Source of the DNA: a virus
Length of the DNA stretch: 64,000 nucleotides
IMG/VR virus record: IMGVR_UViG_3300014627_000002
Coordinates: 1-64,000 of that record
Reading direction: 5' to 3' (one strand)
Every line of letters begins with the position of its first letter. The first letter of the stretch is position 1. The notes under the pieces are model-generated. The model was not told the origin of the DNA. It was given only the letters and a program-made list of their open reading frames with translations, and ran no database searches. This document shows positions 6,109-62,550 of the stretch, piece by piece. The position numbers and the translations under genes were made by a program.

Positions 6109-6112
6109 TAAA

Positions 6113-10904: not shown

Positions 10905-11609
10905 ATGGCATTTGATCTAAAGAATTTTAACGAGGTTAATATACTTGGCCAAGCAAAAGACAAGCTGGCCAAGACTGTTAATAAACAGAAAGATCGGCTG
11001 AGCCGAATTGCTCAGGAAAAGTTAGAAACGATTTCAACCCAGGCCATGAGAAAACAGCAATGGTTTGGGCACTCAGCTGAAGACTTCAAACAGCTCTATT
11101 TAGAAATTTATGGATTAGGCCAGCTGTTAAATGCCAATTATTTTGTAGAGTTTGAAGCCTATGAGGACAATGCTACTGCTAATTTACCCTTATTTGCTGA
11201 TGGATTAAGCGGGTACCTGGTCAGTCAGACCAATTTAAACCTACTTCAAGCTGAATTTGAACAGGTCAAAGTGGGGACCATGCAATCTAATCATTTTGTA
11301 GGGATAAGTGAACCTGATTTGCAATTAAGCCTGATTGAAACAGCAGATGCCCGCTTCATGAATACAATCATGGACTGGCGGGATCTTATGGTCAATCCAG
11401 ATGGCACAGCGAATGAACCGGCAAACTATGCCATGATCATAACAATTGGCATGTTTTCCCGTGATTTTGGCCTGCAATATAAGCCTTTTTCACGGCGTTT
11501 TATCGTTGGACCGTCACAGTCCAGCAAAGATGATTTAACCGGACAGGGAACCAGTGAAGTTGCAGAGGTGCCATTTACTTTAACGGTCCTTCGCAATTTC
11601 ATGGAATAA
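10905..11609 (+). CDS. hypothetical head-module protein
   Basis: 234-aa ORF 3 nt after the portal-like gene. Confidence 0.55.
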   Translation: MAFDLKNFNEVNILGQAKDKLAKTVNKQKDRLSRIAQEKLETISTQAMRKQQWFGHSAEDFKQLYLEIYGLGQLLNANYFVEFEAYEDNATANLPLFADGLSGYLVSQTNLNLLQAEFEQVKVGTMQSNHFVGISEPDLQLSLIETADARFMNTIMDWRDLMVNPDGTANEPANYAMIITIGMFSRDFGLQYKPFSRRFIVGPSQSSKDDLTGQGTSEVAEVPFTLTVLRNFME

Positions 11610-16700: not shown

Positions 16701-16736
16701 AAATGAACAAATGAACAATAGAACAAATGAACATTT
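16701..16736. promoter_or_regulatory. TGAACA-repeat array (class A, locus 1)
   Basis: AAATGAACAAATGAACAATAGAACAAATGAACATTT in the divergent intergenic region. Confidence 0.6.
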
Positions 16737-16820: not shown

Positions 16821-19800
16821 ATGCCATTCAACAATACTGCCCGTGCGGGTTTGCAAGTTTTTTCAGATGCTTTATCAGCACTGAAAAACAAAGTTTCCCC
16901 ATCTCATGCACCAACTGGTGTATATGAATTTCAAGATGAGAAAATTACGCCAACCAAGCGCCAGAAGGCAAACAATGCGGCCGTAAGTCTGTTACGGCAA
17001 TTACAGAATGAATCGGGGTTAAAGGCGACAGCTGAACAGAAGGTCACTTTATCGCGGTACACCGGTAAAGGGGGAAATTTAGAAGTAGAAGGGGTAAAGG
17101 GGAGCCAATATGAATACTACACACCGGTCCCTTTAGCTAATGCACTGTGGGACCTCTTAAAAGAACATGGCTTTGACGGCGGCGCCGTACTCGATCCTTG
17201 CGCGGGGACTGGTATTTTTGCAGCTGGCCGACCTGAATCAGTGGTGATGCAGTCCGTAGAGCTTAATGATGTTTCTGGCGGTATTAATGCGTTGGTAAAT
17301 GACCAGGCAAATCACAATGTCATTGTAAGCCCTTTTGAGAAAATCGCTTCTCAGACGCAAGACAATGTTTATGATGCTGTTATTACTAATGTGCCGTTCG
17401 GTTCACGTGGAGATCGGGGCGATAATGCCCGCCATGATATTTATTCAGATGATGATTTAGACTCATACTTTGTTAAACGGTCAATTGACAAATTAAAGCA
17501 CGGTAAACTGGCCGTATTTATTGCTCACCCAAAATTACTTACGGGTGCCGGTCATAAGAAGTTCCGTCAATATATTTCTCTACGTGCTGAACTGGTGGGA
17601 GCATACCGCCTGCCTAACAAGGTATTCCAAGCTACAGGCGCAGATGTAGTAACTGATGTTCTGGTATTTCGCAAACATACTGAAGAACTGACACAGAAAA
17701 TTGAAAACCTATATGACAATGGTTCACTTCAAGTACTTCAAGATTCCCGCATTCTGGATGCCGATATAATTGACGGTCGATATTACAAGGCTGAAGGTCA
17801 AAAAAACGTACTTGGCCAAAGTACGATAGTCAAACATGCAAAATTTAAAACAGATGTAGAAGCTGTTTTAAGTGATGAAAGCCTGCCGAATATCTTAAAA
17901 CTGATTCGCCGTTTTCCAGACAGCCGTATTAATTATGGGATGCTGGAATTAACAGAAATGAAGCCAGTTTTACCGATACAAGAAGGTGATATTCGTGTCA
18001 TCGGCGGCACTACATTTGAATATCAGGATGGTAAATGGATTAGCACAGGCCAGACAGCCACTTATAGTAATGCTGAAAGCTTTAGTAAGGCCCTCACAGC
18101 TTTTATGTCAGGCATGACTTATGTTGATCTGATGGCTTATCAGAGTCATTGTGTGGCATCACATTACAAGTTATCTGCATGGGCTGGCCAGTTAATTGAT
18201 GTAGTACAAAGCACAGGTGTAGAAACTTATGCACACTGGCTGGTCCAGTTTGCACTGTATGAAGCTTTACAGGCCGAAGCCTATAACAGCTATGCTCAGA
18301 ACTATCCTAAGCTTACAAGTGCTTTAAAGGGCATCGCGGGGCAAGTTGGTAAAAAACCATATAAACATGCTTCAGTTAAGACCCTGGTAACGTTTAACAG
18401 TAAGGCTTTCGATAAAAATTCAGCTGATGGCCTGTCAGCCTATTGGTATGGCAGCACTATTGAAATTGCACAGGCACTAGATGCCAAAGGCGCTTATGAA
18501 AATGCAATTTATATGGGTCGTGCTAAAGACTTTATGGTATCCGTTGATGAAATCCGGCAGACCGATCCTAATTTTGACCCATTGGCTAATGAAGATTATG
18601 CAATTTCAGGGGACGGTCAGTATGTCACGTTAAATCGGGACTATTACACGGGCAATCACGGCGAATTTTTACAGCAGATTGATGCACAGATTGAAGCCGC
18701 AACAGATCCTAAAATACGTGCAAAACTGGTCCAGCAACGTAAAAAATCATTTGAGCATGTTGATTATGTCGATGTGGCCAATATTAATTTAGGTTTACGT
18801 GCTACCAACATTGATATACAGGTCAAAAGTGATTTTCTAAGCCTGTATGGTGGGGATGCAGTGACAGTCGATGAAGACGGTCGCATTCGCTTAAAAGACA
18901 AGCAAGAGCCATTAGATCGCATTATCCGCATTATGAAGCGGGACGGGGTGCAAGGTGCTCAACATCGTTGGGTTCAAACGTTCTTCTTAAACCGTATCTT
19001 GGATTCAGTTAATAACAATGTCCGCCTAACATTGAAGGCGAATAAGGATGAAGTATCTAAGCAGGATCATGACCTGGTATTTAAGGCTTTTTTAGAATAT
19101 GCAAATGAGCTAGATGCAACCTTTAGTGCTTATCTAAAAGCCAATATCGGGTTTATGGAAGACCTAGATGCAAAAGTAAATGACCCAATGCATAAAGAAA
19201 TGCAGAGTGAGCTAGATACTTCACCAGTAGAGGTCAAAGGCTTTGCACCTAAGTTTGCAACATTTAAAGCGATGCAGACTTATCAAAATGCAGAAGTACG
19301 CCGTTTAAGTCGCCGTTTTGAAGGAATTACCGGCTTTGATGTAGGTTTGGGTAAGACACTCACTTCAATTGCAGCTGCACAAAACCTGCATAATATTGGC
19401 GTTAAAAAGCGTACCTTGTTTGTGGTTCCATCACATACGATTTCTAAATGGTATCGTGATATGCAAATGTCGTTAGATGATTACAGTGATGTATTAGTCA
19501 TCGGCTTAAAGGGCAATACACTAAGTTCGGTCAATAGTAGCCATTACGGTGCTGACTTAAACCTATTGCTTAGTGAACCCTATCGCAAGATCCTGATTAC
19601 TAGTGATGCTTTCACTATGATTCCGCTACGTGACCGCACCATTGAAAAATATTATGAAAGTAAAAAGGCAAAAATCGATTTTTCAAAAGATAAAGACCGA
19701 GAAAAATGGAACGCATTTATTGGCAAGAAAAAAGAACCACTTCAAAAAGATGTAGGCCGCCTACCATTTTTTGAGGACCTGAATATTGATAGCATCATTT

Positions 19801-22800
19801 TTGATGAAGCGCAGATGTTTAAAAATGGCGATGCCAGTGAAGGTTTTGGAAATTTCCAGTCTATTAAGGGCCTTTCATTATTAGCAGAAGCACAGTTATC
19901 GGACCGGGCAATTTCGGCCAAAATCAAGTCTGAATATGTTCGGGGTACTAACCCGCTTAAAGATGGTGTTGTATTGCTAAGTGCTACACCTGTAACCAAT
20001 AGCCCGTCAGAAATTCTAACCATGCTGTCACTGGCCATAGGTGAGAAGAAAGCTAAAAATATGCTCGGTGGGGCTGCCATTGATTCTGTAGATGACTTTT
20101 TAAGTACTTTTGCTCATACCGAGTCAATTAGTGGGGTGGACCTGCTGGGTGCCGAACGTGCAGATGAAACCTTTACCGGATTTAAGAATGTCGAATTGCT
20201 TAAAAACGTTTTGCATAGTGTTGGAAACATTCAGACAGCGCGGGAAAATGATTTAAAAATTCCGGCTCAAGAAGATGTTAAAACAAATGTCAGTTTAGGT
20301 AGTGAAGACCGCCAGACGCTTGCTGATCTGAAACGTGCATACAACATTGCCCGTCAAATGGGTAAAGGTGGGCCAGTCCTGGCAGATGAAGACGATATTA
20401 AGTTTTTGCATGAAATGATGGGGAAACTTGGCGAATCTGAAACTTTGATCGGGCATCCATTTAACCTGATTACCAAAATGCAAGATTTGATCTTGATGGG
20501 AAGTGAGTCAGTACTTTCCCGAGCGATGTATGTCAATTACCTGCCTGAAGATCAAGAAAAGGCTCAAAAGGTTATTGATGACTTTAACAAAAAGCCAGTG
20601 AAGGTAACGTCTACTCGATCCTTTCCATTGGTTGATAAAGCAGATGTAAAAATCAAAAAACGGGGAAAAACCATAGGTGATGCAGATGAACTTGAGATTA
20701 CCGTTCGTGCTTTCCTTGATGAAGAAAATAACCGCATTGGCTTGACTGCAAACGATACAAAGGCAATTGCAGGACTAATGACCCTGGCAGATAAGGCTAA
20801 ATTAGCCCTTAAACCTAAGCTGTCATCTAAAATGCAGGCACTTATTGATAATGTAAAAACAGAAATGGCTACGCCTAAACATAATGGTCACGCCAAGCAA
20901 ATTATTTTCTGTGACACATTGGCCATGCATCACATTATCAAGCAGGCTTTGATTGAATACTGCGGAGTAGAAAAGTCCCGTATTGCAATTTTAAATGCTG
21001 CAATCAAGCCAGATGGCAGTAACGGCGCTGTTAAAAGTGAAGATGTTCAGGATATTCAGGACGGCTTTGCTACTGATAAATACACCATTGTCATTGCTAA
21101 TAAGAAAGCTGATACCGGTATTGATCTGCAAAAAGGCACCCAGGCTATTCACCATTTAACAACCGGCTGGACACCTGATAGCTTGCAACAGCGTAATGGC
21201 CGTGGTGTACGTCAAGGTAATGAGCAAGAGCGCGTTAATGTGTATATGTATTCAGCAAATGGCTCATTTGATGAATATAAATTGCATGTGATTAATGGTA
21301 AATCAGACTGGATTAATCAGTTAATGAATAAGGGAGCTACCGTATCTGGCACGCTGCAGGTATCTAGTGAGCTTACAGATGATGATTATGACCTGATGAT
21401 TCAGGCAGACAGTGCCGAAGCCATTGAAGGGCTTTTAAAACAGCGTCAGGAACGCGAGAATCAAGCACGTCATGACCGGGCAGTTAAACATACTGATCTG
21501 TTAATCAAAATTGCAAAAAAAGCAGCGTCACAGGCAGACCGTACAGAGTCTAGTGTTGCTCAGGAAATCATTATTAAGGATTACGAAAAGTACATCACTT
21601 TAATGCGCCGTGATGCTAAGGCAGAGGACGCGGCTGAACGTAACCAGATCCTAGAGCAAAAGCAGGCCATTGTAAGTCAGTATGATAGTTATCTGAAAAA
21701 TAACAGTGTTGAAAATTGGGATAGGGGTTTAAAGCGCAAGGCAGAGGAAAAAGGCCAGGCATCACTTTGGTTGTCTTCATTACATCATTCTGGTTTTGAA
21801 GTCGCTGCAACAGAGTTCAGTAAATTAGATGAGCAAGTTTTAAATTCTGATACCTCACTTTCAAGCCGTGCAAAAGCTAGTTTTCAGTCATTAAAACGTA
21901 TGGCAGACAGTACACGTGAACAGCTTTTAAAATATGCAGACAGTCCATTTACTGATGAAGAACGGGCCATGTTACTTGATGGTACCGCCGTTCTTGATGA
22001 GAACCAGCAAATCTTAAAGCATGGTGATCTTTTAAAGGCAGAAGGAAGTAACGGCGCTATATACGGTATGCGTGTTATTGCTGAATCTCAAGACTACTAT
22101 ACTTTCACTGAAAGCTTTGTCCGTAATAGACAACCAATTGAACCGCATGAGCGTGATGCAGCAATTCAAAGCTTTATTGCTTATGAAACACAGTTGCTAA
22201 AAAAGAATGAGGTGTTCAGTTACGGTAGTTTAAATAGCGAAACATTAAACTCAAATAAACGCTTTAGCCGGGTTTATCCAGAGATCCAGACAGCAGTTGA
22301 AGAACAGTTGAAGGCAGAGCATGATAACTGGATTCACCAGAGTAGCGTATACAACAGTCCAGGACTCCAATTGAAGTCCAACCATGCTCTACACTGGCCA
22401 GAAATTACCTTTCCTCAATTCTTTAAAAATAACTTGCAGCTGGCGACTGTTTTTAATGCGCCATTTTCAGGAATCATTGAAAGTATTGAACTCGGTGATG
22501 CAATTGCTCGAGTCAAAATTCCTAACACTAAAGCGGACTTGGTGCAGCGTAAATATCCGATGAATCTAACTCGCTTGGCTGAGCAAATTTTTTCAGTAGC
22601 TGAAACAGAAAAAATTGCGGTAGATTTACAACATGCTGAATCTATTATCAATAATGAATTTATGTATTACTTTGCAGAGAAAGTAGATAAAGCTTTATCT
22701 GCATACTATAAGGGAAGTTTAAAGCTGCTTTATCCGCATCATACAGTCTTGACTGATGACCAAAAGGTAGAGATTGCAGAATATATTTTAGAACATGCTT

Positions 22801-23174
22801 TAAATGGCTTAGTAAGTTCTTATACACATCTAATGGAATGGGTACAGGAAAAGTCTGCATTTAAAGGAATTCTAAAGCTATATGCATTAGATGATAATGA
22901 CCCCGAAGTTATTGTAAAACAGCATGTAAAACTACACGGCGGCATGGGTAAATTTAAGAATATTAAAATTACTGGTGTAGCTTTCTTGGGTACCGGCAGT
23001 TTTGGAGCAGCTTTCAAGTCAACCTATAAAGATGATATGAAGGCGTATGCTGACTCGATCCGTAAGCGTTGTGCTTGGGACAACCGCAATACCCGTTGGG
23101 TAGTTGAACCTGAAGTCATGGTATGGATGATGAAACAGGACTGGTTTAATATGAATGAAGTAGAATTTTACTAA
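16821..23174 (+). CDS. 2117-aa DNA methyltransferase - SF2 (SNF2-like) helicase fusion, P1 DarB-like
   Basis: MTase motif I LDPCAGTGIFAAG (~17190) and motif IV ITNVPFG (~17382). Helicase motifs: GFDVGLGKTL (~19335), IIFDEAQ (~19795), LLSATPVTN, QQRNGRGVRQG (~21185). A late box lies upstream. Confidence 0.75.
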   Translation: MPFNNTARAGLQVFSDALSALKNKVSPSHAPTGVYEFQDEKITPTKRQKANNAAVSLLRQLQNESGLKATAEQKVTLSRYTGKGGNLEVEGVKGSQYEYYTPVPLANALWDLLKEHGFDGGAVLDPCAGTGIFAAGRPESVVMQSVELNDVSGGINALVNDQANHNVIVSPFEKIASQTQDNVYDAVITNVPFGSRGDRGDNARHDIYSDDDLDSYFVKRSIDKLKHGKLAVFIAHPKLLTGAGHKKFRQYISLRAELVGAYRLPNKVFQATGADVVTDVLVFRKHTEELTQKIENLYDNGSLQVLQDSRILDADIIDGRYYKAEGQKNVLGQSTIVKHAKFKTDVEAVLSDESLPNILKLIRRFPDSRINYGMLELTEMKPVLPIQEGDIRVIGGTTFEYQDGKWISTGQTATYSNAESFSKALTAFMSGMTYVDLMAYQSHCVASHYKLSAWAGQLIDVVQSTGVETYAHWLVQFALYEALQAEAYNSYAQNYPKLTSALKGIAGQVGKKPYKHASVKTLVTFNSKAFDKNSADGLSAYWYGSTIEIAQALDAKGAYENAIYMGRAKDFMVSVDEIRQTDPNFDPLANEDYAISGDGQYVTLNRDYYTGNHGEFLQQIDAQIEAATDPKIRAKLVQQRKKSFEHVDYVDVANINLGLRATNIDIQVKSDFLSLYGGDAVTVDEDGRIRLKDKQEPLDRIIRIMKRDGVQGAQHRWVQTFFLNRILDSVNNNVRLTLKANKDEVSKQDHDLVFKAFLEYANELDATFSAYLKANIGFMEDLDAKVNDPMHKEMQSELDTSPVEVKGFAPKFATFKAMQTYQNAEVRRLSRRFEGITGFDVGLGKTLTSIAAAQNLHNIGVKKRTLFVVPSHTISKWYRDMQMSLDDYSDVLVIGLKGNTLSSVNSSHYGADLNLLLSEPYRKILITSDAFTMIPLRDRTIEKYYESKKAKIDFSKDKDREKWNAFIGKKKEPLQKDVGRLPFFEDLNIDSIIFDEAQMFKNGDASEGFGNFQSIKGLSLLAEAQLSDRAISAKIKSEYVRGTNPLKDGVVLLSATPVTNSPSEILTMLSLAIGEKKAKNMLGGAAIDSVDDFLSTFAHTESISGVDLLGAERADETFTGFKNVELLKNVLHSVGNIQTARENDLKIPAQEDVKTNVSLGSEDRQTLADLKRAYNIARQMGKGGPVLADEDDIKFLHEMMGKLGESETLIGHPFNLITKMQDLILMGSESVLSRAMYVNYLPEDQEKAQKVIDDFNKKPVKVTSTRSFPLVDKADVKIKKRGKTIGDADELEITVRAFLDEENNRIGLTANDTKAIAGLMTLADKAKLALKPKLSSKMQALIDNVKTEMATPKHNGHAKQIIFCDTLAMHHIIKQALIEYCGVEKSRIAILNAAIKPDGSNGAVKSEDVQDIQDGFATDKYTIVIANKKADTGIDLQKGTQAIHHLTTGWTPDSLQQRNGRGVRQGNEQERVNVYMYSANGSFDEYKLHVINGKSDWINQLMNKGATVSGTLQVSSELTDDDYDLMIQADSAEAIEGLLKQRQERENQARHDRAVKHTDLLIKIAKKAASQADRTESSVAQEIIIKDYEKYITLMRRDAKAEDAAERNQILEQKQAIVSQYDSYLKNNSVENWDRGLKRKAEEKGQASLWLSSLHHSGFEVAATEFSKLDEQVLNSDTSLSSRAKASFQSLKRMADSTREQLLKYADSPFTDEERAMLLDGTAVLDENQQILKHGDLLKAEGSNGAIYGMRVIAESQDYYTFTESFVRNRQPIEPHERDAAIQSFIAYETQLLKKNEVFSYGSLNSETLNSNKRFSRVYPEIQTAVEEQLKAEHDNWIHQSSVYNSPGLQLKSNHALHWPEITFPQFFKNNLQLATVFNAPFSGIIESIELGDAIARVKIPNTKADLVQRKYPMNLTRLAEQIFSVAETEKIAVDLQHAESIINNEFMYYFAEKVDKALSAYYKGSLKLLYPHHTVLTDDQKVEIAEYILEHALNGLVSSYTHLMEWVQEKSAFKGILKLYALDDNDPEVIVKQHVKLHGGMGKFKNIKITGVAFLGTGSFGAAFKSTYKDDMKAYADSIRKRCAWDNRNTRWVVEPEVMVWMMKQDWFNMNEVEFY

Positions 23175-23668: not shown

Positions 23669-23670
23669 AG

Positions 23671-23695
23671 GTTTAAATGAACAAATGAACAAATA
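23671..23695. promoter_or_regulatory. TGAACA-repeat array (class A, locus 2)
   Basis: GTTTAAATGAACAAATGAACAAATA immediately after the terminator. Confidence 0.55.
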
Positions 23696-23814
23696 CTCAT
23701 TCTAAAGACTGATGGTTAGATTCTAACAATGTATATTAAATCATCAAGGCAGGGATTACGGCCCTAGACCTTTTATAAGCACTATCTAAGCGCTAGCAGA
23801 AAAAGGAAAGGTCA

Positions 23815-23859
23815 GGAATAGTAAATTTCTGGCTTTTTTTAATATGTTTAAATGTTCAA
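23815..23859 (+). promoter_or_regulatory. late-operon box, weak copy
   Basis: GGAATAGTAAATTT lacks the A-run; TAAATGTT at +34; ATG at 23887. Confidence 0.3.
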
Positions 23860-23874
23860 TTGAACAAATGAAGG
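23844..23874. promoter_or_regulatory. TGAACA-repeat array (class A, locus 3)
   Basis: ATGTTTAAATGTTCAATTGAACAAATGAAGG; contains the perfect 14-bp palindrome TGTTCAATTGAACA (23853-23866). Confidence 0.55.
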
Positions 23875-23886
23875 AATAAACAAATT

Positions 23887-24171
23887 ATGCGTGAAGCGAA
23901 AGATCATCCTAATTTTAGTGAGATCCTTCAGTATGGCCATACTGTTGAAGCCGACATTGCAATGTTTATGAATGGCGAATTTTGGCAGTATTACAAGCGG
24001 GGGGACTTTAGCACTAAAAACTATTGGTATTGTCTACCAGTACGCAACGGGCAGGCTCTTGGCTGGCGAAATGGCTATGTTGCATGTATGAACCAGCTAA
24101 AAGATTTTTATATAAATATGGGTAAAAAAGTTGAGCTTATAGAAATCAGGAATAAGGAAAAAACCTCATAA
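23887..24171 (+). CDS. hypothetical protein
   Basis: 94-aa ORF with RBS-like AAGGAA upstream. Confidence 0.55.
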   Translation: MREAKDHPNFSEILQYGHTVEADIAMFMNGEFWQYYKRGDFSTKNYWYCLPVRNGQALGWRNGYVACMNQLKDFYINMGKKVELIEIRNKEKTS

Positions 24172-24215: not shown

Positions 24216-24989
24216 ATGGCTTTTATAAAACCGAAGATTGTGAACCAGGCTAAGCCAAGTACACAGTATGAAAATAAAAGCGATTGGGGGAACTTGTCAG
24301 ATGTATACAAGATGCGCATTCGCTTATGTGATAAAGAGGGAAACCTACTTGATCAATACGCTCAGCAAATCGTTGGAGTCGCCGTAGATGGCGATATATC
24401 CATAGATAATCAGTACAGCACACCATTTGAAAATTCAAATCCTGAACATCGATTACCTACTATGATGGGGATGCTGCAATCTGGTGATTGGGTAAATACG
24501 CTAGAGATCGGCTTATCAAATGTATTTGGCATAGAGCTTAGCCAGGATAAGAAAGAATCTATTAACGCATTAGAAGGCCGGAGCAACTTAACTAAGGTTA
24601 ATTCTACTCAGATATTTGTTGCAACCCAGCCAATTACAATTTCTACCACACTGTATTTTTCAGCTTGGCGTAGCGCAAAAATAGAAGTCGAACAGCAAGT
24701 AGCCTTACTTAAACAGTGGGCTTTACCCAACAAATTAGCTGACGGCAGCATTTTAGCCAGTGCGCTAGAAGATAAATCATTACTTTCATTATTTCCTTCT
24801 GAAGTACCGCCGTATGTGTCGATCTACTACGGAGGTAAGAAATATACCCCCTTATTAATTCAAAGCGTATCTGAACCATTAGTCGTGCCTATGACTGAAG
24901 ACGGGGACCGTCTAGCGCTGCAGGTACCAGTCACATTTGTATCCCGTACAGCCTGGGATAAAGACAATATTTCTAAAATTTATTTATAA
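24216..24989 (+). CDS. hypothetical virion protein
   Basis: 257-aa ORF behind a late box. No motif recognised. Confidence 0.55.
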   Translation: MAFIKPKIVNQAKPSTQYENKSDWGNLSDVYKMRIRLCDKEGNLLDQYAQQIVGVAVDGDISIDNQYSTPFENSNPEHRLPTMMGMLQSGDWVNTLEIGLSNVFGIELSQDKKESINALEGRSNLTKVNSTQIFVATQPITISTTLYFSAWRSAKIEVEQQVALLKQWALPNKLADGSILASALEDKSLLSLFPSEVPPYVSIYYGGKKYTPLLIQSVSEPLVVPMTEDGDRLALQVPVTFVSRTAWDKDNISKIYL

Positions 24990-28940: not shown

Positions 28941-28968
28941 CGCATAATCATTATGCATTAATGCATAA
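28941..28968. promoter_or_regulatory. class B operator-like palindromes (locus 2)
   Basis: CGCATAATCATTATGCATTAATGCATAA (GCATAAT-C-ATTATGC). Confidence 0.45.
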
Positions 28969-29100: not shown

Positions 29101-29127
29101 CTTGTGCTGCAAAGCTTACAGGATATT

Positions 29128-29201
29128 AAAAGATAGTTTTTCCGAGTTATAAAGATAGTTTTTCCGATGTGGATAACTCATTAAAAGATAGTTTTTCCGA
29201 G
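29128..29201 (+). repeat. oriV iterons (3 direct copies, starts 29128, ~29150, 29183) upstream of rep
   Basis: AAAAGATAGTTTTTCCGAG occurs three times (the middle copy ends CCGAT), spaced 22 and 33 bp. Partial or inverted copies GATAGTTTGTAGA and GACTATCTTT follow at 29208-29231. Confidence 0.85.
29168..29176 (-). promoter_or_regulatory. consensus DnaA box
   Basis: TGTGGATAA is the reverse complement of TTATCCACA; it sits between iterons 2 and 3. Confidence 0.6.
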
Positions 29202-29279: not shown

Positions 29280-30203
29280 ATGAAAATGCAGAGTCGGCTT
29301 GTAGTTAAAGATAATGCACTGATAGATGCAAGCTTTAACTTAACCCTTATTGAACAGCGTTTAATGCTATTGGCTATTGTTGAAGCCAGGGAACTATCAA
29401 CACTCACCCCATCTATACCCGTAGAAGTCACTGTAAAGAGCTATATTGAACAATATAAAGTAAAAGAGAGCACTGCATACGAAACATTGTTTGATGCGTG
29501 TAAAACGCTAAGACGGCGTGAATTTAGCTATATAGACCGTTATAAGAATAGTGATGCTGTTTCTACTGCAGGTTGGGTGAATAAAGTCACTTATGTAAAG
29601 TCTAAGGGCATAGTGGTTTTATATCTAAGTGAAGAAGTGATCAGCATGATCAGCCGGTTAGAAGAACAATTTACTCGTTACCATTTAGAGCAGGTTTCAG
29701 ATTTTAATAGTAAATATAGCATTCGACTCTATGAAGTGGTTATCAAGTGGTTAGCAGCTGGTAAAACTGGAAAGATTGCTATCAATGATCTACGTGCACG
29801 GCTGGGACTGCAAGATACTGAATATAAAACCATGAGCCTGTTTAAAACTAATGTGCTTGATAAGGCAGTTGATGAAATTAACGCTAAAACAGACGTGCGG
29901 GTAAAGTATGATCAGTATAGATCAGGCCGAACAATTAGCCATTTTTCCTTTACGTTGAAAGAGAAACGTGTAATTAAAACAGTTAAGGATGCTAAACAGT
30001 ATCAGTTTGAATTATCAGCAAAACAGGTTGATTTTTTTGCAAATAAACTTGCTTCTGACCCTAATTTCGGTAGCCAGTATGCAAAAGTTGGGGAAAGCGT
30101 TGAAGACTTTGAGATCCGAGTAAAAGGACAGTTAGCTCAAAAGACCTATTGTGCTAAGTATTCTGAGCATTTAATTCGTTTAGGTTATATCGAAAAAACT
30201 TAA
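29280..30203 (+). CDS. Rep_3-family plasmid replication initiator
   Basis: LVVKDNALIDASFNLTLIEQRLMLLAIVEARE is the typical Rep_3 N-terminal signature; the gene is flanked by iterons. Confidence 0.85.
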   Translation: MKMQSRLVVKDNALIDASFNLTLIEQRLMLLAIVEARELSTLTPSIPVEVTVKSYIEQYKVKESTAYETLFDACKTLRRREFSYIDRYKNSDAVSTAGWVNKVTYVKSKGIVVLYLSEEVISMISRLEEQFTRYHLEQVSDFNSKYSIRLYEVVIKWLAAGKTGKIAINDLRARLGLQDTEYKTMSLFKTNVLDKAVDEINAKTDVRVKYDQYRSGRTISHFSFTLKEKRVIKTVKDAKQYQFELSAKQVDFFANKLASDPNFGSQYAKVGESVEDFEIRVKGQLAQKTYCAKYSEHLIRLGYIEKT

Positions 30204-30250
30204 ATTAATTTTTGGTTAAAAATCTTTTTATATCAAAAAGATTGCTTGGT

Positions 30251-30317
30251 AAAAGATAGTTTTTCCGAGTAAATAAAAGATAGTTTTTCCGAGTGAATAA
30301 AAGATAGTTTTTCCGAG
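30251..30317 (+). repeat. second iteron array (3 tandem 24-bp units) downstream of rep
   Basis: AAAAGATAGTTTTTCCGAG at 30251, 30275 and 30299, identical to the upstream iterons. Confidence 0.85.
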
Positions 30318-30333: not shown

Positions 30334-31023
30334 TTAACTGTCTTTGTTTAGCAGATTTCTATTAAGCACCTGCTTCACTGTTTTTGCATACCAGAGCCCG
30401 CCATGCTTGCTTTTAATAGCCTGTTTATTCAGTGATGATGCTATTTTTCTATATCCAAAACCCTGTTGTTTAAGCTCAAGCATAAGCGTTATGGTCTGTT
30501 GTTCATCCGGGTTCTGCACCAGGTTATCTTCTTCTTTGTCATATCCATACGGCACATGCGAGTACACCTTGTCATTTGCACGTAAATAGTCAATAACCAG
30601 CTTTGTACGCTCAGATATTTGGTCGCGTTCAAACTGGTTGAGTACTGCCAGAATGCTAAATACCATTCTGCCCGTGGCGCCAGTAGTATCAATATTTTCA
30701 GATAGGCTAACCATATCAGCGCCAGTTTTATTGATGTACTCAGCTATTGATAAGGTATCGATAGTATTACGGCTAACCCGGGAAAGGCTATAAAAGACAA
30801 ATACCATGTCTTTCTCTAATGAATTTAAGGCTTCTTTTAATTTTGGCCGGTTAATAACTTTCTTTCCTGAAATCCCTTCATCAATAAAAATCTGGACCAA
30901 TTCATAATTATGAAAATTGGCCCATTGTTTGATTTTTTCAGTTTGTGCTTCTAATGAAAGTCCATCTTGTGCCTGTTTCAGTGTGCTCACACGTACATAG
31001 CCGATAGCTTTTCTCTTAATCAC
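30334..31023 (-). CDS. serine recombinase (resolvase-type, probable multimer resolution)
   Basis: AIGYVRVSTLKQAQDGLSLEAQ is the catalytic-serine motif. The C-terminal PYGY...QQGFGYRKIASSLN is recombinase/HTH-like. 229 aa. Confidence 0.8.
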   Translation of the reverse strand: MIKRKAIGYVRVSTLKQAQDGLSLEAQTEKIKQWANFHNYELVQIFIDEGISGKKVINRPKLKEALNSLEKDMVFVFYSLSRVSRNTIDTLSIAEYINKTGADMVSLSENIDTTGATGRMVFSILAVLNQFERDQISERTKLVIDYLRANDKVYSHVPYGYDKEEDNLVQNPDEQQTITLMLELKQQGFGYRKIASSLNKQAIKSKHGGLWYAKTVKQVLNRNLLNKDS

Positions 31024-31027
31024 GTCC

Positions 31028-31309
31028 TTACTGTCCCTTATATTTCTCTAATCCATCTTTCAAGAACTGGTTAAGCGCTTCTCTACGAGTCTTAAATTTA
31101 CGTGAATTAACTACGAACAGGTCCAGTTCCTGTTTTGTATCTGCATCACAGTCCCAATTCACACGGACCGTTTCTGCACTAGCTGCGGCCTTTTTACTTG
31201 GCGCTGTAGTGTCTTCAGCAGGGCTATCGTTTTGTGCAAACTCTTTAGCTTCTGCAAAACGGTTTTTAGCACCTGGTTTAGCAATTGCCTGGCGTGGTTT
31301 TGTCGTCAT
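31028..31309 (-). CDS. small ParG-like (ribbon-helix-helix) partition/centromere-binding protein
   Basis: 93 aa, immediately downstream of parA. It has a disordered basic N-terminus and an RHH-like C-terminus (VRVNWDCDADTKQELDLFVVNSRKFKTRREALNQFLKDGL). Confidence 0.45.
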   Translation of the reverse strand: MTTKPRQAIAKPGAKNRFAEAKEFAQNDSPAEDTTAPSKKAAASAETVRVNWDCDADTKQELDLFVVNSRKFKTRREALNQFLKDGLEKYKGQ

Positions 31310-31314
31310 GTTTA

Positions 31315-31959
31315 CTACCCTTGTTTAAGTGCCTTTAAAACTTCTTTACCAAAGTCTTGAAACTGTTGTTTAGCTTTCTGGTGATTATGAATCAGTGCAT
31401 GTTTTCCAAGTCCAATGACTTCTTCATAAGCTACATAATTTGAGATCGGGACCGGTATTTCTGGATAACCAAAAGTTTCTAATGCTGCTTCACGTATCTC
31501 GTTAGATTTAGACGTGTTTTTAAACCTATTCCAGACAATACGCAAATTAACTTTTTTGTCTTTAGCTTCTAGTGCCTTAGTAATAAGTTCAGCCATATCA
31601 CTTACTGCCCACAGATCAGGGGAAGTGGCTGCCATAGGAAGTAATACCAGGTCGCTGATATAAAGGATCGCGTTCATGATTTCAGCCATACGCGGCGGTG
31701 AATCAATTACTACATAGTCATACTTGCCTTCAGCAGCTTCAAGAACCTGCATAAGTTCATCAAGATTACGAGCTGTTTCACAGGTCAGTTTTGGATGCTC
31801 AAACATACTGCACCAGGCAGACAATGTACCTTGCGGTAAGTCGGCATCAACTGCCAGAACTGTCTTTTTCTTTTCAAGAAGGAACCCGCATAGATTCGCT
31901 GATAAAGTGGACTTACCGGCCCCACCCTTTAATTGTAAGAATGAAATATATTGTGTCAT
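31315..31959 (-). CDS. parA: ParA/Soj-type partition ATPase
   Basis: Deviant Walker A LQLKGGAGKSTLSANL, and VVIDSPP. The ATG at 31959 has an AGGGAA RBS. The listed start at 31998 is a TTG inside the repeat array. Confidence 0.85.
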   Translation of the reverse strand: MTQYISFLQLKGGAGKSTLSANLCGFLLEKKKTVLAVDADLPQGTLSAWCSMFEHPKLTCETARNLDELMQVLEAAEGKYDYVVIDSPPRMAEIMNAILYISDLVLLPMAATSPDLWAVSDMAELITKALEAKDKKVNLRIVWNRFKNTSKSNEIREAALETFGYPEIPVPISNYVAYEEVIGLGKHALIHNHQKAKQQFQDFGKEVLKALKQG

Positions 31960-31967
31960 GGGTTCCC

Positions 31968-32025
31968 TGTTTATTTGTTTAAATGAAAAAATGTTCAAAT
32001 GAACTAAAATTCATTTGAACATTTT
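31968..32025. promoter_or_regulatory. TGAACA-repeat array (class A, locus 4): candidate par operator/centromere
   Basis: TGTTTATTTGTTTAAATGAAAAAATGTTCAAATGAACTAAAATTCATTTGAACATTTT. It contains the perfect inverted repeat ATGTTCAAATGAA-N6-TTCATTTGAACAT (31991-32022). Confidence 0.6.
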
Positions 32026-32058
32026 AGGTGAAAAAAAACGAAATTACAAATTAGGAAA

Positions 32059-33509: not shown

Positions 33510-34295
33510 TCAATACTTATTCGTAACGAATAGAACACGCCCTAAAATCTGGAAAGTTGGGTCATTTTCAGTATTGACAGTGTATTCAGGAAAATTTTCC
33601 TGTTTGGCTCTTACTCGAATGCTGCCATCAGGTTCAAGAAATAAAGTACGCACATATTTATTTTTACCATGCTTAATTACAAAGTAATCACCATTGGTAC
33701 TCGGTGTAACTTCTTCCTCCTTCAAGTTAAAAGTGACAGCTGCGCCGGGTGTAATTTCGGGTGCATTTGCACGATCTTCAGAATAGACAAATCGTAGATC
33801 GTTATGTGAAATATTATCGCTTACTAGCTGAGCCGCTATCATAATTGTTGAATCTCTACCCGCGTTTTTATCTTTGAGTGCATTAGGATTATTCGCATCC
33901 TCATACATGCGCACAAGAATAAAATTTTCGTCAGATATGCGCAAGGTATTATCTTGAACTTTTACAATAATGTCTTGCTGTTCAAGTCCTGCAAGCCACT
34001 CACTATTTAATCCGAGGGCTTTTGCGATATTGGGAATGAAGCGGGATTTCTTGGTTTTCCCCATAATGATACGGCTAATTGTGGCTTGTTCTACATCGGC
34101 TAATTTTGCTAATTCATCCTGCGTAAGCCCCGATTCATCAAGGGCAAGTTCTAATCTGACTGAGGACAATGGACGATCCGTATTGAGTTGCCCAAACCCC
34201 TTTTTAACATAGTCAATAGTCTTGTCATCTTTAATATTTATTCGAGATGACAGAGAAGCCTCATCAACCGGATTCGGCTGTACGTTAATATCCAT
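33510..34295 (-). CDS. cI-like prophage repressor (XRE HTH + LexA/S24-like C-terminal fold)
   Basis: HTH: LTQDELAKLADVEQATISRIIMGKT. The C-terminal GDYFVIKHGKNKYVRTLFLEPDGSIRVRAKQENFPEY...ILGRVLFV parallels the lambda cI C-domain. The gene is divergent from a Cro-like gene. Confidence 0.75.
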   Translation of the reverse strand: MDINVQPNPVDEASLSSRINIKDDKTIDYVKKGFGQLNTDRPLSSVRLELALDESGLTQDELAKLADVEQATISRIIMGKTKKSRFIPNIAKALGLNSEWLAGLEQQDIIVKVQDNTLRISDENFILVRMYEDANNPNALKDKNAGRDSTIMIAAQLVSDNISHNDLRFVYSEDRANAPEITPGAAVTFNLKEEEVTPSTNGDYFVIKHGKNKYVRTLFLEPDGSIRVRAKQENFPEYTVNTENDPTFQILGRVLFVTNKY

Positions 34296-34357
34296 TCTTA
34301 TTTAAACCTCAAAAACCCATACGCAAAAGATTAAAAGCCATGTCATTTCAGGCTTTC

Positions 34358-34473
34358 TTTCATAATTATGCAATAAAAAAATGAAAGTTCAATTAAGCCA
34401 AGAACTACGTCAAGCATCAAAGTGCTTGCTAAAATATTCGCTTGCGCATAATATTTATGCTAATGAGCATAAT
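34358..34473. promoter_or_regulatory. immunity switch region with class B operators
   Basis: CATAATTATGCA (34361-), GCGCATAATATTTATGC (34444-34460) and ATGAGCATAAT lie between the divergent cI-like and Cro-like genes. There is also a CAAGCA-N6-TGCTTG hairpin (34411-34428). Confidence 0.6.
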
Positions 34474-40163: not shown

Positions 40164-40207
40164 AAATGTTTAAATGAACAAAAGAACATTTAAACAAATA
40201 AACAAAC
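40164..40207. promoter_or_regulatory. TGAACA-repeat array (class A, locus 5)
   Basis: AAATGTTTAAATGAACAAAAGAACATTTAAACAAATAAACAAAC (TGTTTAAATG / CATTTAAACA inverted). Confidence 0.55.
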
Positions 40208-40449
40208 TTAATGAGATAAGTATGAATCAAGTAGCCGTTTTTTTTCATCATCAATCAAATTTGAATAACGCCCTTCAGGAAAACAATGGCGATGCATATC
40301 GCAAGATTATGATGCAGGCTGAAAAGCCAGTAATTGAACATACTTTGGTTATTTGTCGTGGCAACCAGACCAAAGCTGCTGAAATGCTGGGCTTAAACCG
40401 TGGCACGCTTCGTAAAAAAATGAAAGAACACGGCTTTATGAAGGCTTGA
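40174..40449 (+). CDS. Fis-family small DNA-binding protein
   Basis: The C-terminal RGNQTKAAEMLGLNRGTLRKKMKEHG is a Fis-type HTH. The first ATG lies inside the repeat array, so the true start may be the ATG at 40222. Confidence 0.65.
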   Translation: MNKRTFKQINKLNEISMNQVAVFFHHQSNLNNALQENNGDAYRKIMMQAEKPVIEHTLVICRGNQTKAAEMLGLNRGTLRKKMKEHGFMKA

Positions 40450-42937: not shown

Positions 42938-42996
42938 ATTGTTCATTTAAATAATCTATGTTTAAATGAACAAATGTTCAAATGAACAAATAAACA
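42938..42996. promoter_or_regulatory. TGAACA-repeat array (class A, locus 6)
   Basis: TTGTTCATTTAAA-N9-TTTAAATGAACAA (42939-42973), then ATGTTCAAATGAACAAATAAACA. Confidence 0.6.
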
Positions 42997-43011: not shown

Positions 43012-43329
43012 ATGTTTAATATTGATGAAATGCTGGAATTTGAAAGAAATAACTTTACCCGGGCGCTTTATACCTTGCCTGTTTTGAACGATGGCCAGCT
43101 ATTTCTTTGTGGTAGTTGCGATATTCGTAACGATGTAAAACCGGTGCCTTTCAAGCACGTGTACCAGCGCTCTATAGACCCAAGCACAGGGCAGGGGGGT
43201 GAGAAGTTTGAAACCGTGTATGTATCTGAATGCTGTAAAGGCGATCTGGTGGTATGGGATGCGTATGTTTGTGACTTTGTAGATATTGCACCAGAACATT
43301 ATGTGAGTGACCAGGCGGGTGAGGGCTAA
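43012..43329 (+). CDS. Cys-rich hypothetical protein
   Basis: GGGGG RBS; CGSC and SECCKG pairs. Confidence 0.6.
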   Translation: MFNIDEMLEFERNNFTRALYTLPVLNDGQLFLCGSCDIRNDVKPVPFKHVYQRSIDPSTGQGGEKFETVYVSECCKGDLVVWDAYVCDFVDIAPEHYVSDQAGEG

Positions 43330-48375: not shown

Positions 48376-49044
48376 ATGAATATGCAGACTGAAGACAAAG
48401 AAGCTTTTTTTGATGAAAAAAGACTGATCACAGTCGTTGGCATCAATTGTTTACGTGCACGGGAAATTGCTGGCTTAACCCGTAAAGAAGCCCAGGCACG
48501 TATTTTTAGATATAAAAACCCGGATATGTTTGCTAACCGGATATGCGAGATCGAAACCGGCAACAAGAAAATTGATCTTAAAATTCTATATCGCATGTGC
48601 GTTGAGTACTCATGCAGTGCTGACTATCTGTTGGGCCTAAGCAATGACTTTGAGCGTAACCTGGCATCGTCTTATTCAGGTATGGTTTTTAATTCGGTCC
48701 GTGGTAGCGTTTTGGAAATGACTGAGCGTGTTTGTACGCAAATGTCAGAGATCGTGCGCTTTCTGCCGCCGTTTCAGGGGGAATTATTAAAAAACAGTGC
48801 CAAGAATACAGTAGATACTATAGATCAGCATTTGCATGATCTGGCGTTTAAGGGCTCTTATCCGGATATTGTTGATGCTTATAATGATTTAAAGGCGAAG
48901 GTTCAGATGTTTGATACCTTCTTTGCTAAGCAGATGCGGATTATGGAGTTAAATATGCTGGACCAGTTAAATCATAAGGATGATGAACTTTCTAGCCGTA
49001 CTATGACCGACTATACTGCATTGCCTGTACCTGAGAAGTGTTAA
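48376..49044 (+). CDS. XRE-family HTH regulator with 120-aa C-terminal extension
   Basis: LRAREIAGLTRKEAQARIF...ICEIETGNKKIDLKILYRMCVEYSCSADYLLGLSND. Confidence 0.6.
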   Translation: MNMQTEDKEAFFDEKRLITVVGINCLRAREIAGLTRKEAQARIFRYKNPDMFANRICEIETGNKKIDLKILYRMCVEYSCSADYLLGLSNDFERNLASSYSGMVFNSVRGSVLEMTERVCTQMSEIVRFLPPFQGELLKNSAKNTVDTIDQHLHDLAFKGSYPDIVDAYNDLKAKVQMFDTFFAKQMRIMELNMLDQLNHKDDELSSRTMTDYTALPVPEKC

Positions 49045-57804: not shown

Positions 57805-57829
57805 GACCCGCCGTGTGCGGGTTTTATTT
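57805..57829 (+). terminator. rho-independent terminator
   Basis: ACCCGC-cgtgt-GCGGGTTTTATTT. Confidence 0.75.
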
Positions 57830-57869
57830 CATGTTTAAATGAACAAATAAACAAATGAACAATAAAATC
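57830..57869. promoter_or_regulatory. TGAACA-repeat array (class A, locus 7)
   Basis: CATGTTTAAATGAACAAATAAACAAATGAACAATAAAATC. Confidence 0.55.
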
Positions 57870-61168: not shown

Positions 61169-61170
61169 TA

Positions 61171-62539: not shown

Positions 62540-62550
62540 ATCCCATACAG

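What the first reader, a model, noticed from the sequence alone, without database searches (positions are those of the whole stretch)
31968..32025. TGAACA-repeat arrays at seven dispersed loci including the parA promoter: candidate scattered centromere/operator set
**Locations.** Units of the form TTTAAATGAACAAAT(G/A)AACA occur only in intergenic DNA. The loci are 16701-16736, 23671-23695, 23844-23874, 31968-32025, 40164-40207, 42938-42996 and 57830-57869. Most lie just after a terminator, at the head of an early or maintenance transcription unit.

**Palindromes.** Several arrays form perfect palindromes:
- ATGTTCAAATGAA-N6-TTCATTTGAACAT (31991-32022, directly upstream of parA);
- TTGTTCATTTAAA-N9-TTTAAATGAACAA (42939-42973);
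- TGTTCAATTGAACA (23853-23866).

**Interpretation.** Type Ib partition systems (ParA plus a small RHH protein) normally carry their centromere/operator repeats upstream of parA, and this is the only repeat cluster next to the par operon here. The seven loci could therefore act like the dispersed sop centromere sites of phage-plasmid N15, which sit in phage promoters. Alternatively they could be binding sites for the Fis-like protein (40174..40449), or a promoter family.

**Side effect.** The array creates spurious N-terminal extensions (MNIFSFKQIN on parA, MNKRTFKQIN on the fis-like gene).
Basis: partly seen in the sequence, partly recalled or inferred. Interest (0 to 1): 0.7.

Follow-up and report, generated by a model that had tools for sequence, protein, structure and literature searches.

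The report
Partition-protein binding arrays scattered over phage-plasmid
Seven short arrays of 8-bp repeats in an Acinetobacter phage-plasmid match the repeats in front of its partition genes, so the small partition protein probably also controls, or uses as extra centromeres, six other phage operons.

Summary
A phased 4-unit scan finds exactly the seven reported loci (31 hexamers, consensus T(G/A)AACA, spaced in multiples of 8 bp). All are intergenic and all score far above shuffles.

The window is a distant P1-like Acinetobacter phage-plasmid. It carries a type Ib parA, a 93-aa gene and a resolvase. The 93-aa protein is predicted to have a disordered tail plus a ribbon-helix-helix (RHH) domain.

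Comparative evidence:
- Each relative carries arrays with the same 8-bp layout, upstream of parA and at 4-9 other operon heads. The 4-bp box differs between genomes: GAAC, ACTC/ATAC, ATCATA, GATC, GATA.
- Boxes learned only from a genome's parA-upstream array find that genome's dispersed arrays and none in genomes of another class.
- Box type follows the ribbon sequence of the 93-aa protein in twelve loci.
- An integrative relative without par genes has no arrays.

The arrays are not cI operators, Rep iterons or the separate late-promoter-like motif, and the Fis-like gene is not conserved.

Best reading: a ParG/omega-like centromere-binding protein whose operator/centromere boxes are spread across phage operons. 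No binding, repression or partition has been tested. This is a new variant of a known kind (pSM19035 omega, TP228 ParG, N15 Sop, RK2 KorB).

The parts
31968..32025 (.). parA-proximal array. Seven phased units: TGTTTA, TGTTTA, TGAAAA, TGTTCA, TGAACT, AATTCA, TGAACA. It includes a perfect palindrome with 16-nt arms. Candidate par operator and centromere.
   Evidence: The array ends 9 nt from the parA ATG.
32021..32049 (-). Best sigma-70-like promoter candidate for parA (TTGTAA-N17-TAAAAT). Its -10 hexamer overlaps the first array unit.
   Evidence: The same promoter/array geometry appears in WCHA55, L018, L024 and L020.
31315..31959 (-). parA: a small Walker-type (type Ib) partition ATPase of 214 aa, with no N-terminal HTH domain.
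   Evidence: Pfam AAA_31, VirC1 and CbiA. Called as 214 aa in sibling contigs.
31028..31309 (-). 93-aa ParG-like protein. It has a disordered N-terminal tail carrying a conserved KP...RF..A..FA motif, and a C-terminal RHH domain with ribbon VRVNWDCD.
   Evidence: AlphaFold2 models. The best Foldseek matches are RHH domains. Alignments A1 and A2.
30334..31023 (-). Serine recombinase (resolvase), the last gene of the par operon.
   Evidence: Pfam Resolvase.
16701..16736 (.). Array 1. Four contiguous direct units, 14 nt upstream of a late-promoter-like motif (GGAATAT at 16750) and of the DarB-like gene 16821-23174.
   Evidence: Arrays occupy the same position in WCHA55 (60643) and defluvii (67995).
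23670..23695 (.). Array 2a. Three units, directly after a terminator. In sibling elements it has one more 8-bp unit and heads a three-gene cargo module that is absent here.
23845..23882 (.). Array 2b. Includes the perfect palindrome TGTTCAATTGAACA and ends 5 nt before the ATG of gene 23887-24171 (94 aa). That gene heads the operon running into the lysis region.
40164..40207 (.). Array 4. Five contiguous units, ending 15 nt upstream of the Fis-family HTH_8 gene (true start 40219).
42938..42996 (.). Array 5. Five contiguous units plus one arm 19 bp upstream, ending 16 nt before gene 43012-43329. That gene heads an operon of unknown genes running to about 47632.
57830..57869 (.). Array 6. Four contiguous units directly after a terminator (57805-57823), upstream of the operon 57997-61919, which includes an N6/N4 DNA methylase.

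Best explanation
The arrays are the DNA sites of the phage-plasmid's own type Ib centromere-binding protein, the 93-aa RHH protein encoded directly after parA.

**Proposed mechanism (inferred throughout).**
- One dimer reads each 4-bp box (GAAC or GTTC, sometimes AAAC). Dimers on neighbouring boxes interact across the 4-bp AT-rich spacers, so an array of 4-7 units is coated cooperatively.
- The array upstream of parA overlaps the -10 and start region of the par promoter. It serves as the autoregulatory operator and as the site where ParA is engaged for partition.
- The six other arrays sit at the heads of other transcription units: the DarB-like gene, a cargo slot, the lysis-region operon, the Fis-like operon and two operons of unknown genes. 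The same protein binds them.
- These six arrays therefore tie expression of those operons to the level of the partition protein, or provide extra partition-complex sites, or both.
For: **Shown from sequence or computation.**
- There are exactly seven phased arrays, all intergenic.
- The gene order is parA (type Ib), then the 93-aa gene, then a resolvase.
- The 93-aa protein is predicted as a disordered tail followed by strand, helix, helix. The model of the C-terminal domain has pLDDT 90. Its best PDB fold matches are RHH domains: HicB3, ParD, PrpA and Mnt, with query TM-scores of 0.56-0.74.
- Its ribbon VRVNWDCD shares 4 of 8 residues with the TP228 ParG ribbon KRVNVNFD, including R2 and N4 of the base-contacting positions 2, 4 and 6.
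- Hexamers learned only from each genome's parA-upstream array recover 5, 8, 4, 5 and 9 further arrays in the same genome (window, WCHA55, soli, defluvii, oleivorans). They recover none in genomes of another box class.
- Ribbon and box change together:
  - ribbons of the form xR(V/E/T)N(W/F)D go with GAAC-type boxes (window, WCHA55, soli, P0012, P0011, P0017);
  - YREVFDAP goes with TGATTA/ATCATA (defluvii and, independently, P0014);
  - IRQSYDCP goes with GCTC/ATAC;
  - GRESWECP goes with GATC;
  - VRFNFQTT goes with GATA;
  - KRLNCDIP goes with ACTC/ATAC.
- The alternating 8+9-bp spacing is shared by the two loci with RRENFD(I/L) ribbons.
- In sibling elements array 2a differs by exactly one 8-bp unit.
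- The integrative relative ABMM1 lacks ParA, the ParG-like gene and Rep, but keeps the conserved 222-aa HTH gene. It has no period-8 arrays and no dispersed intergenic 10-mer.
- The best promoter candidate abuts or overlaps the parA-proximal array in six loci.

**From the literature.**
- TP228 ParG binds ACTC boxes separated by invariant 4-bp AT-rich spacers, in direct or inverted orientation, one dimer per box. The OF operator is also a working centromere (PMC3130281).
- pSM19035 omega has six parS arrays that overlap three promoters, and needs at least 4 contiguous repeats to activate ParA (PMC9499535).
Against: - No binding, repression or partition data exist.
- Homology to ParG or omega is not detectable by sequence: hhalign probability is 0.4% and PDB profile E-values are 0.3-1.4. 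Foldseek E-values are not significant because the domain is so small.
- Positions 2, 4 and 6 of the ribbon are the same (R, N, D) in the oleivorans protein, although its boxes differ. Specificity must therefore also depend on other residues.
- Promoter positions at the six dispersed arrays are ambiguous, so an operator role there is inferred from position only.
- The par-less control is a single lineage.
- About 12 kb of the roughly 76-kb element lies outside the window and was not seen.
Confidence: 0.65

Rival explanations
1. A different phage-encoded DNA-binding protein reads all the arrays, including the one at parA. Candidates are the 222-aa XRE-type HTH protein (48376-49044), which is conserved in all five genomes, or an unrecognised small protein. 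On this reading the ParG-like protein is not the reader.
For: The 222-aa HTH protein is the only other predicted DNA-binding protein conserved in all five genomes. In oleivorans an array lies directly upstream of its gene (11326-11371).
Against: - Its predicted recognition helix, NR(I/V/L)xE(I/L)E, is nearly the same in genomes with different boxes. The one variable position does not follow box class.
- ABMM1 keeps a homologue of this protein but has no arrays.
- Long runs of 8-bp units in either orientation, up to about 900 bp in L019, are typical of RHH coating proteins and not of HTH dimers.
- A conserved late-promoter-like motif is a more natural target for this protein.
Confidence: 0.13
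2. The arrays are a promoter family. TGAACA units would act as -35-like hexamers and terminal TAAACA/TAAAAT units as -10-like hexamers, for host RNA polymerase or a phage-specific factor, with no role in partition.
For: - The arrays sit at operon heads.
- TGAACA matches TTGACA at 4 of 6 positions.
- Units 24 bp apart give -35/N18/-10 geometry: TGAACA-N18-TATAAA at site 1 and TGAACA-N17-TAAAAT at site 6.
- From direct reading of the sequence, TAAACA units tend to close the arrays on the gene side.
Against: - Box sequence switches completely between plasmids of one host genus, which host sigma-70 elements would not do.
- Units occur in both orientations and in variable copy number.
- Four arrays end 5-16 nt from the start codon, leaving no room for a leader if the array's terminal unit were the -10 element.
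- A distinct, conserved late-promoter-like motif already exists.
Confidence: 0.07
3. The arrays are dispersed operators of the cI-like immunity repressor (33510-34295), comparable to the many C1 operators scattered over phage P1.
For: The element is distantly P1-like. From my own knowledge, P1 C1 controls many dispersed operators. The cI-like repressor is present in four of the five genomes by tblastn.
Against: - No array lies in the cI-cro intergenic region of any of the five genomes.
- In the window that region holds different palindromes, GCATAAT..ATTATGC.
- The window's cI has no detectable homologue in oleivorans; that genome instead carries a non-homologous S24-type repressor and nine non-parA arrays.
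Confidence: 0.05
4. The Fis-family HTH_8 protein (40219-40449) binds the arrays.
For: An array lies directly upstream of its gene, and the protein is a DNA-binding protein (Pfam HTH_8).
Against: It has no homologue in soli, defluvii or oleivorans, which all have arrays. In WCHA55 its homologue is not preceded by an array.
Confidence: 0.03

Closest known systems
TP228 ParF/ParG with the parH centromere and OF operator (type Ib)
   Same: - A small Walker ParA is followed by a small protein with a flexible tail and an RHH domain.
- Sites are 4-bp boxes with 4-bp AT-rich spacers (8-bp period), in direct or inverted orientation, upstream of the ATPase gene.
- The operator doubles as a centromere (PMC3130281).
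- The ribbon VRVNWDCD resembles ParG's KRVNVNFD.
- The oleivorans relative even uses ACTC boxes.
   Different: - No significant sequence similarity to ParG.
- The boxes here are GAAC.
- The arrays are shorter: 3-7 units against 8+12 in TP228.
- The arrays are spread over seven loci of a phage genome rather than clustered upstream of the par genes.
pSM19035 delta/omega with multiple parS arrays
   Same: An RHH centromere-binding protein acts as a global regulator. Several arrays of short repeats, in mixed orientation, overlap the promoters of different operons and are also the centromeres. At least 4 contiguous repeats are needed (PMC9499535).
   Different: - The period is 7 bp (WATCACW), not 8 bp.
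- Only three promoter types are targeted, all for plasmid maintenance.
- The host is a Firmicute plasmid, not a phage.
- The proteins are not detectably related.
N15 SopAB with the four dispersed IR1-4 centromere sites
   Same: A phage-plasmid whose partition-protein sites are scattered through phage regions (PMC7205306). The Sop system is reported to affect late gene expression (Ravin et al. 2008, known here only from its title as cited in PMC11652158).
   Different: N15 has a type Ia system: an HTH ParB (SopB) that binds single 16-bp palindromes, with no arrays. N15 is a lambdoid siphovirus.
RK2/RP4 KorB (own knowledge)
   Same: A partition protein that binds about a dozen operators dispersed over the replicon and acts as a global repressor.
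   Different: KorB is a ParB-family HTH protein that binds single 13-bp palindromes on a conjugative plasmid.
Phage P1 C1 repressor operators and Lpa late promoters (own knowledge)
   Same: A related virion module. In P1, many dispersed regulatory sites sit at operon heads.
   Different: The arrays are absent from the cI-cro region. They also differ from the late-promoter-like motif GGAATATC(A/G)A(A/G)AAA found here.

Membership tests
Type Ib plasmid partition system | A small Walker-type ParA without an N-terminal HTH domain | tested here: met
   214 aa, with Pfam AAA_31, VirC1 and CbiA. The Walker A motif starts at about residue 11.
Type Ib plasmid partition system | A small centromere-binding protein with an RHH fold, encoded directly downstream of parA | tested here: met
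   The 93-aa gene starts 6 nt after parA ends. AlphaFold2 gives strand-helix-helix, with pLDDT 90 for the domain. The top PDB fold matches are RHH domains with TM-scores of 0.66-0.74, although their E-values are not significant.
Type Ib plasmid partition system | An array of short repeats upstream of parA that overlaps the promoter | tested here: met
   Seven phased units at 31968-32021. The candidate -10 hexamer overlaps the first unit.
Type Ib plasmid partition system | The protein binds the repeats, stimulates ParA and stabilises a plasmid | not testable with these tools
   This needs EMSA or footprinting, ATPase assays and plasmid stability assays.
ParG family (TP228) | Detectable sequence homology to ParG | tested here: not met
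   hhalign of the family profile against ParG (1P94) gives the expected register but a probability of 0.4% and E = 0.14. A PDB profile search returns no ParG hit.
ParG family (TP228) | Sites made of 4-bp boxes with 4-bp AT-rich spacers, tolerant of orientation | tested here: met
   31 units of the form T-box-A-WW at an 8-bp period, in both orientations. Compared with PMC3130281.
pSM19035 omega-type global regulator | Several arrays at the promoters of different operons | tested here: inconclusive
   Seven arrays lie at operon heads. Overlap with a promoter is well supported only at parA.
pSM19035 omega-type global regulator | 7-bp heptad repeats (WATCACW) | tested here: not met
   The period here is 8 bp.
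N15-type dispersed Sop centromeres | A type Ia ParB/SopB that binds single palindromic sites | tested here: not met
   The ParA is type Ib, the partner protein is an RHH protein, and the sites are arrays.
P1 C1-type immunity operators | Sites present in the repressor's own control region | tested here: not met
   No array lies in the cI-cro region of any of the five genomes.
Rep iterons | Repeats adjacent to the rep gene or origin that match the iteron sequence | tested here: not met
   The iterons are 22-bp repeats, AAAGATAGTTTTTCCGAG, at 29125-29201 and 30248-30317, and are unrelated to the arrays.

The most novel reading that the evidence does not exclude
In this group of Acinetobacter P1-like phage-plasmids the partition protein may be a master regulator. 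Its concentration, and therefore plasmid copy number and partition state, would set the expression of phage operons for antirestriction, lysis-region, recombination and accessory functions. Its ribbon and all 6-10 dispersed arrays would switch specificity together, creating distinct partition and regulatory incompatibility types. If so, one small protein would couple plasmid inheritance to phage gene control. The group would also offer a natural series for reading an RHH ribbon-to-box recognition code and for studying how many dispersed sites change in concert.
Probability: 0.35. Interest if true: 0.72.

Novelty: new variant of a known kind. Interest (0 to 1): 0.58.

Why it matters
**For annotation.** The finding gives a testable function to a protein family currently annotated only as 'hypothetical protein' in A. 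baumannii and A. nosocomialis. The elements that carry it are common in Acinetobacter.

**For phage-plasmid biology.** The partition module may be wired into the control of phage genes, not just into inheritance.

**For protein-DNA recognition.** At least five natural ribbon/box pairs share one scaffold (GAAC, ACTC/ATAC, ATCATA, GATC, GATA). This is the kind of series needed to work out RHH recognition rules and to build orthogonal repressors.

**For plasmid incompatibility.** It predicts partition and regulatory incompatibility groups among co-circulating Acinetobacter phage-plasmids.

Tried and rejected
**Searches that found nothing useful.**
- Megablast of 16 kb against phages found nothing. 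Against plasmids it found only short matches to one relative. Relatives had to be found by protein search with the portal protein.
- The word-indexed protein search returned only the query itself. The exhaustive search returned 17 proteins (E up to 0.001), about 14 of them true homologues.
- Rfam and tRNA scans of the window found nothing.
- Look-ups of three other window proteins, intended to reach the unseen ~12 kb of the element, failed. A metagenome scan with the sequence at the window's end also failed.
- The paper on N15 Sop and late gene expression (PMC2394991) is not held in the library.

**Structure and homology tests that were weak or negative.**
- Foldseek with the full-length model gave no PDB hits and only noise in BFVD. 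Only the trimmed domain model recovered RHH folds.
- Profile searches of PDB sequences and hhalign against ParG were not significant.

**Promoter scans.** Consensus promoter scans were not enriched over shuffles and did not fix promoters at the dispersed arrays.

**Hypotheses rejected.**
- Host-factor site, because the box changes within one host genus.
- Fis-like binder, because the gene is not conserved.
- cI operators, because no array lies in the cI-cro region.
- Rep iterons, because their sequence is different.
- Late-promoter family, because a separate motif was found.
- Arc-like 85-aa RHH protein at 62142-62399, because it is not conserved and has no array upstream.
- pac site, because pac should be unique.

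Full report
**1. The observation**

All seven loci are present as described. I built a weight matrix for the 6-bp unit from the arrays and scored four units in 8-bp phase along the window. Exactly seven loci stand out, with scores of 24.8-38.8. The best score in 20 shuffles was 17.9, and nothing else in the window passed even the mean shuffle maximum of 12.9.

The arrays contain 31 phased hexamers with consensus T(G/A)AACA, in either orientation. Each hexamer is followed by two A/T bases, so a unit is a 4-bp box (GAAC, GTTC or AAAC) plus a 4-bp AT-rich spacer. Spacings within arrays are multiples of 8 bp, apart from one arm at 42940 that lies 19 bp away. Tandem Repeats Finder reports period 8 or 16 at four of the loci.

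No array base lies in a coding sequence, although the window is 91% coding. The chance of that is about 4e-8.

The three palindromes are correct. The one next to parA has 16-nt arms.

Two details of the finding are overstated. Only three arrays follow a terminator-like hairpin. At least one array heads a late gene rather than an early or maintenance gene.

**2. Context**

The window is most of a phage-plasmid of roughly 76 kb. Sibling contigs are 73-77.6 kb.

- The portal protein is 23% identical to the P1 portal and 48-69% identical to the portal proteins of four complete Acinetobacter plasmids.
- The maintenance region holds a Rep_3 initiator flanked by two clusters of 22-bp iterons.
- Next come the operon of parA (214 aa, type Ib), a 93-aa gene and a resolvase, then ERF, a cI-like S24 repressor and a cro-like gene.
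- The six other arrays precede:
  - a 2117-aa DarB-like methylase/helicase;
  - an empty slot that in sibling elements holds three cargo genes;
  - a 94-aa gene at the head of the operon that runs into the lysis genes;
  - a Fis-family HTH_8 gene;
  - two operons of genes with no known family, apart from one DNA methylase.

**3. Relatives show that the arrays belong to the par locus**

I loaded four complete relatives, whose proteins are 20-69% identical to those of the window. Each has arrays with the same layout upstream of parA and at several other operon heads. The box differs between genomes.

| Genome | Box or unit |
|---|---|
| WCHA55, A. soli | GAAC (WCHA55 alternates 8- and 9-bp spacing) |
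| A. oleivorans | ACTC/GAGT, mixed with ATAC and ACAT |
| A. defluvii | ATCATA/TATGAT |

I took hexamers only from each genome's parA-upstream array and searched all five genomes with them. This found 5, 8, 4, 5 and 9 further arrays in the cognate genome (window, WCHA55, soli, defluvii, oleivorans). GAAC-class sets cross-detected each other. No set found an array in a genome of another class.

Several positions are shared across genomes. Arrays lie upstream of the DarB-like gene in all three genomes that have it. They lie at the head of the operon carrying the homologue of window gene 24216-24989 (257 aa) in the window, WCHA55 and defluvii, and upstream of ERF in five loci.

A motif-blind period-8 detector finds 3-7 arrays in the par-bearing genomes. 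The exception is WCHA55, which is missed because of its 8/9 spacing. The same detector finds none in phage ABMM1, a relative that integrates and has no ParA, no ParG-like gene and no Rep. ABMM1 also has no dispersed intergenic 10-mer.

**4. The protein**

- *Family.* The 93-aa protein has no Pfam family. An exhaustive search of 1.8 billion cluster representatives returned 17 proteins (E up to 0.001), about 14 of them true homologues. Public records name them only 'hypothetical protein'.
- *Fold.* AlphaFold2 predicts a disordered tail, then a strand (residues 47-55) and two helices. The isolated C-terminal domain models at pLDDT 90. Its best PDB fold matches are RHH domains: HicB3, ParD, PrpA, Mnt and M. 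tuberculosis ParD1. Query TM-scores are 0.56-0.74. The E-values are not significant for so small a domain.
- *Similarity to ParG.* Sequence comparison with ParG gives the expected register but no significance. I therefore do not place the protein in the ParG family.
- *Ribbon.* The ribbon is VRVNWDCD, against ParG's KRVNVNFD. In RHH proteins positions 2, 4 and 6 contact bases (PMC3413123).
- *Tail.* The tail carries a conserved KP...RF..A..FA motif with a nearly invariant arginine. From my own knowledge this recalls the arginine-finger tail of ParG.

**5. Ribbon and box change together**

I fetched the genomic context of further family members and compared each ribbon with the boxes upstream of parA.

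| Ribbon | Locus | Boxes or arrays upstream of parA |
|---|---|---|
| SRVNWDCP | P0012 | ten GAAC/GTTC units |
| RRENFDLD | P0011 | 14-mers at 17-bp spacing, as in WCHA55 (RRENFDIP) |
| YREVFDAP | P0014 | TGATTTTATGATTA, as in defluvii, which has the same ribbon |
| KRTNFDCP | P0017 | degenerate G(A/T)(A/T)C |
| IRQSYDCP | P0002 | GCTC/ATAC |
| GRESWECP | P0006 | GATC, in about 900 bp of 8-bp tandem repeats |
| VRFNFQTT | P0013 | GATA |

The first three rows were predictions made before I looked at the DNA, and all three held. In L018, L019 and L023 the local box type again appears at other intergenic sites.

The one imperfect case is oleivorans. Its ribbon has R, N and D at positions 2, 4 and 6, like the GAAC class, but it differs at positions 1, 3 and 5.

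**6. What the arrays are not**

- *cI operators.* The cI-cro regions of all five genomes lack arrays. In the window that region holds GCATAAT..ATTATGC palindromes instead.
- *Rep iterons.* The iterons have an unrelated sequence.
- *Late promoters.* A separate conserved motif, GGAATATC(A/G)A(A/G)AAA followed about 25 nt later by AAAATAG..C.TA, precedes structural genes in genomes of every box class examined except A. oleivorans, and looks like the late-promoter family.
- *Sites for other window proteins.* The Fis-like gene and the Arc-like gene are not conserved among array-bearing genomes.
- *Sites for the 222-aa HTH protein.* This protein is conserved, but its recognition helix does not vary with box class, and it is retained in the array-free ABMM1.
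- *An RNA.* No Rfam family matches.

**7. Likely mechanism**

- *At parA.* The best promoter candidate is TTGTAA-N17-TAAAAT, and its -10 hexamer overlaps the first array unit. The same arrangement recurs in WCHA55, L018, L024 and L020. In L023 the array overlaps the -35 hexamer. This fits autoregulation by promoter occlusion, as at the TP228 OF operator, which is also a working centromere (PMC3130281).
- *At the dispersed arrays.* They hold 3-5 contiguous units. In pSM19035, arrays of 4 or more units are enough to activate ParA, and the arrays overlap several promoters (PMC9499535). Four dispersed arrays end 5-16 nt from a start codon. One lies 14 nt upstream of a late-promoter-like motif.
- *Inference.* I infer that the protein coats these arrays and modulates the adjacent operons, and that they may also serve as extra partition-complex sites. 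The dispersed IR1-4 centromere sites of N15 are a precedent (PMC7205306).
- *Status of the evidence.* Binding, the direction of any regulation and centromere activity are all inferred, not shown. Promoter positions at the dispersed arrays remain uncertain.

**8. Verdict**

- *Novelty.* This is a new variant of a known kind. It works like TP228 ParG and pSM19035 omega, with N15 Sop and RK2 KorB as functional parallels. The protein family is unannotated and not detectably homologous to those proteins. The site set also reaches into phage operons and has diversified into at least five box types.
- *Prior description.* I found no description of this system in the searchable literature.
- *Limits.* There are no experiments. 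There is only one par-less control lineage. About 12 kb of the element was not examined.

Noticed in passing
window 6695, 9266, 16750, 25796 (+ strand); possibly 14354, 26922, 62494: A second conserved intergenic motif: GGAATATC(A/G)A(A/G)AAA, then about 22-28 nt, then (C)AAAATAG(A/C)NC(C/T)TA, just upstream of structural and virion genes. It is shared by WCHA55, defluvii and soli regardless of their array box type, and is probably the late-promoter family of this phage group. The conserved 222-aa HTH protein (48376-49044) is a candidate activator.
   Followed up: partly
window 29125-29201 and 30248-30317: Six 22-bp Rep_3 iterons (AAAGATAGTTTTTCCGAG) lie in two clusters that flank the rep gene (29280-30203). 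A DnaA-box-like TGTGGATAA sits at about 29168.
   Followed up: partly
window 34354-34377, 34440-34470 and 28942-28956: Palindromes of the form GCATAAT(N)ATTATGC occur in the cI-cro intergenic region and again upstream of the small ORF next to the replication origin. They are candidate operators of the cI-like repressor, so one of them may link immunity to replication.
   Followed up: no
window 4750-6601 (- strand): An ISL3-family transposase (452 aa) and a 162-aa ORF are inserted in the packaging/head module. Neither is present at this position in the four relatives.
   Followed up: partly
window 23696-23844; L011 17260-18905; L014 13811-15456: The gap between arrays 2a and 2b is a variable cargo slot. 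Sibling elements carry three extra genes there (60, 248 and 194 aa), and their array 2a has one additional 8-bp unit.
   Followed up: partly
L019 7659-8565: One relative has about 900 bp of nearly pure 8-bp tandem repeats upstream of parA: AAAGATCA about 20 times, AATGATCC about 25 times, and AATGATCA. This is far larger than any other centromere-like array in the family. Its partner protein has the ribbon GRESWECP.
   Followed up: partly
window 62142-62399 (- strand): A second RHH protein (Pfam Arc, 85 aa, ribbon PQVNFRIP) with a C-terminal coiled-coil-like tail. No TGAACA array lies upstream, and it is not conserved in most relatives.
   Followed up: partly
L003 (WCHA55 record 62545-62567 and 63205-63236): Two GAAC-type arrays in WCHA55 lie inside an annotated 810-aa coding sequence (62342-64774). 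These are the only clear intragenic arrays seen.
   Followed up: no
L002/L003 (WCHA55), e.g. record 2627, 2675, 13471, 16127, 50964: The 10-mers AA(A/G)CGCCGTG recur nine times each across WCHA55, often near operon boundaries. Their meaning is unknown.
   Followed up: no
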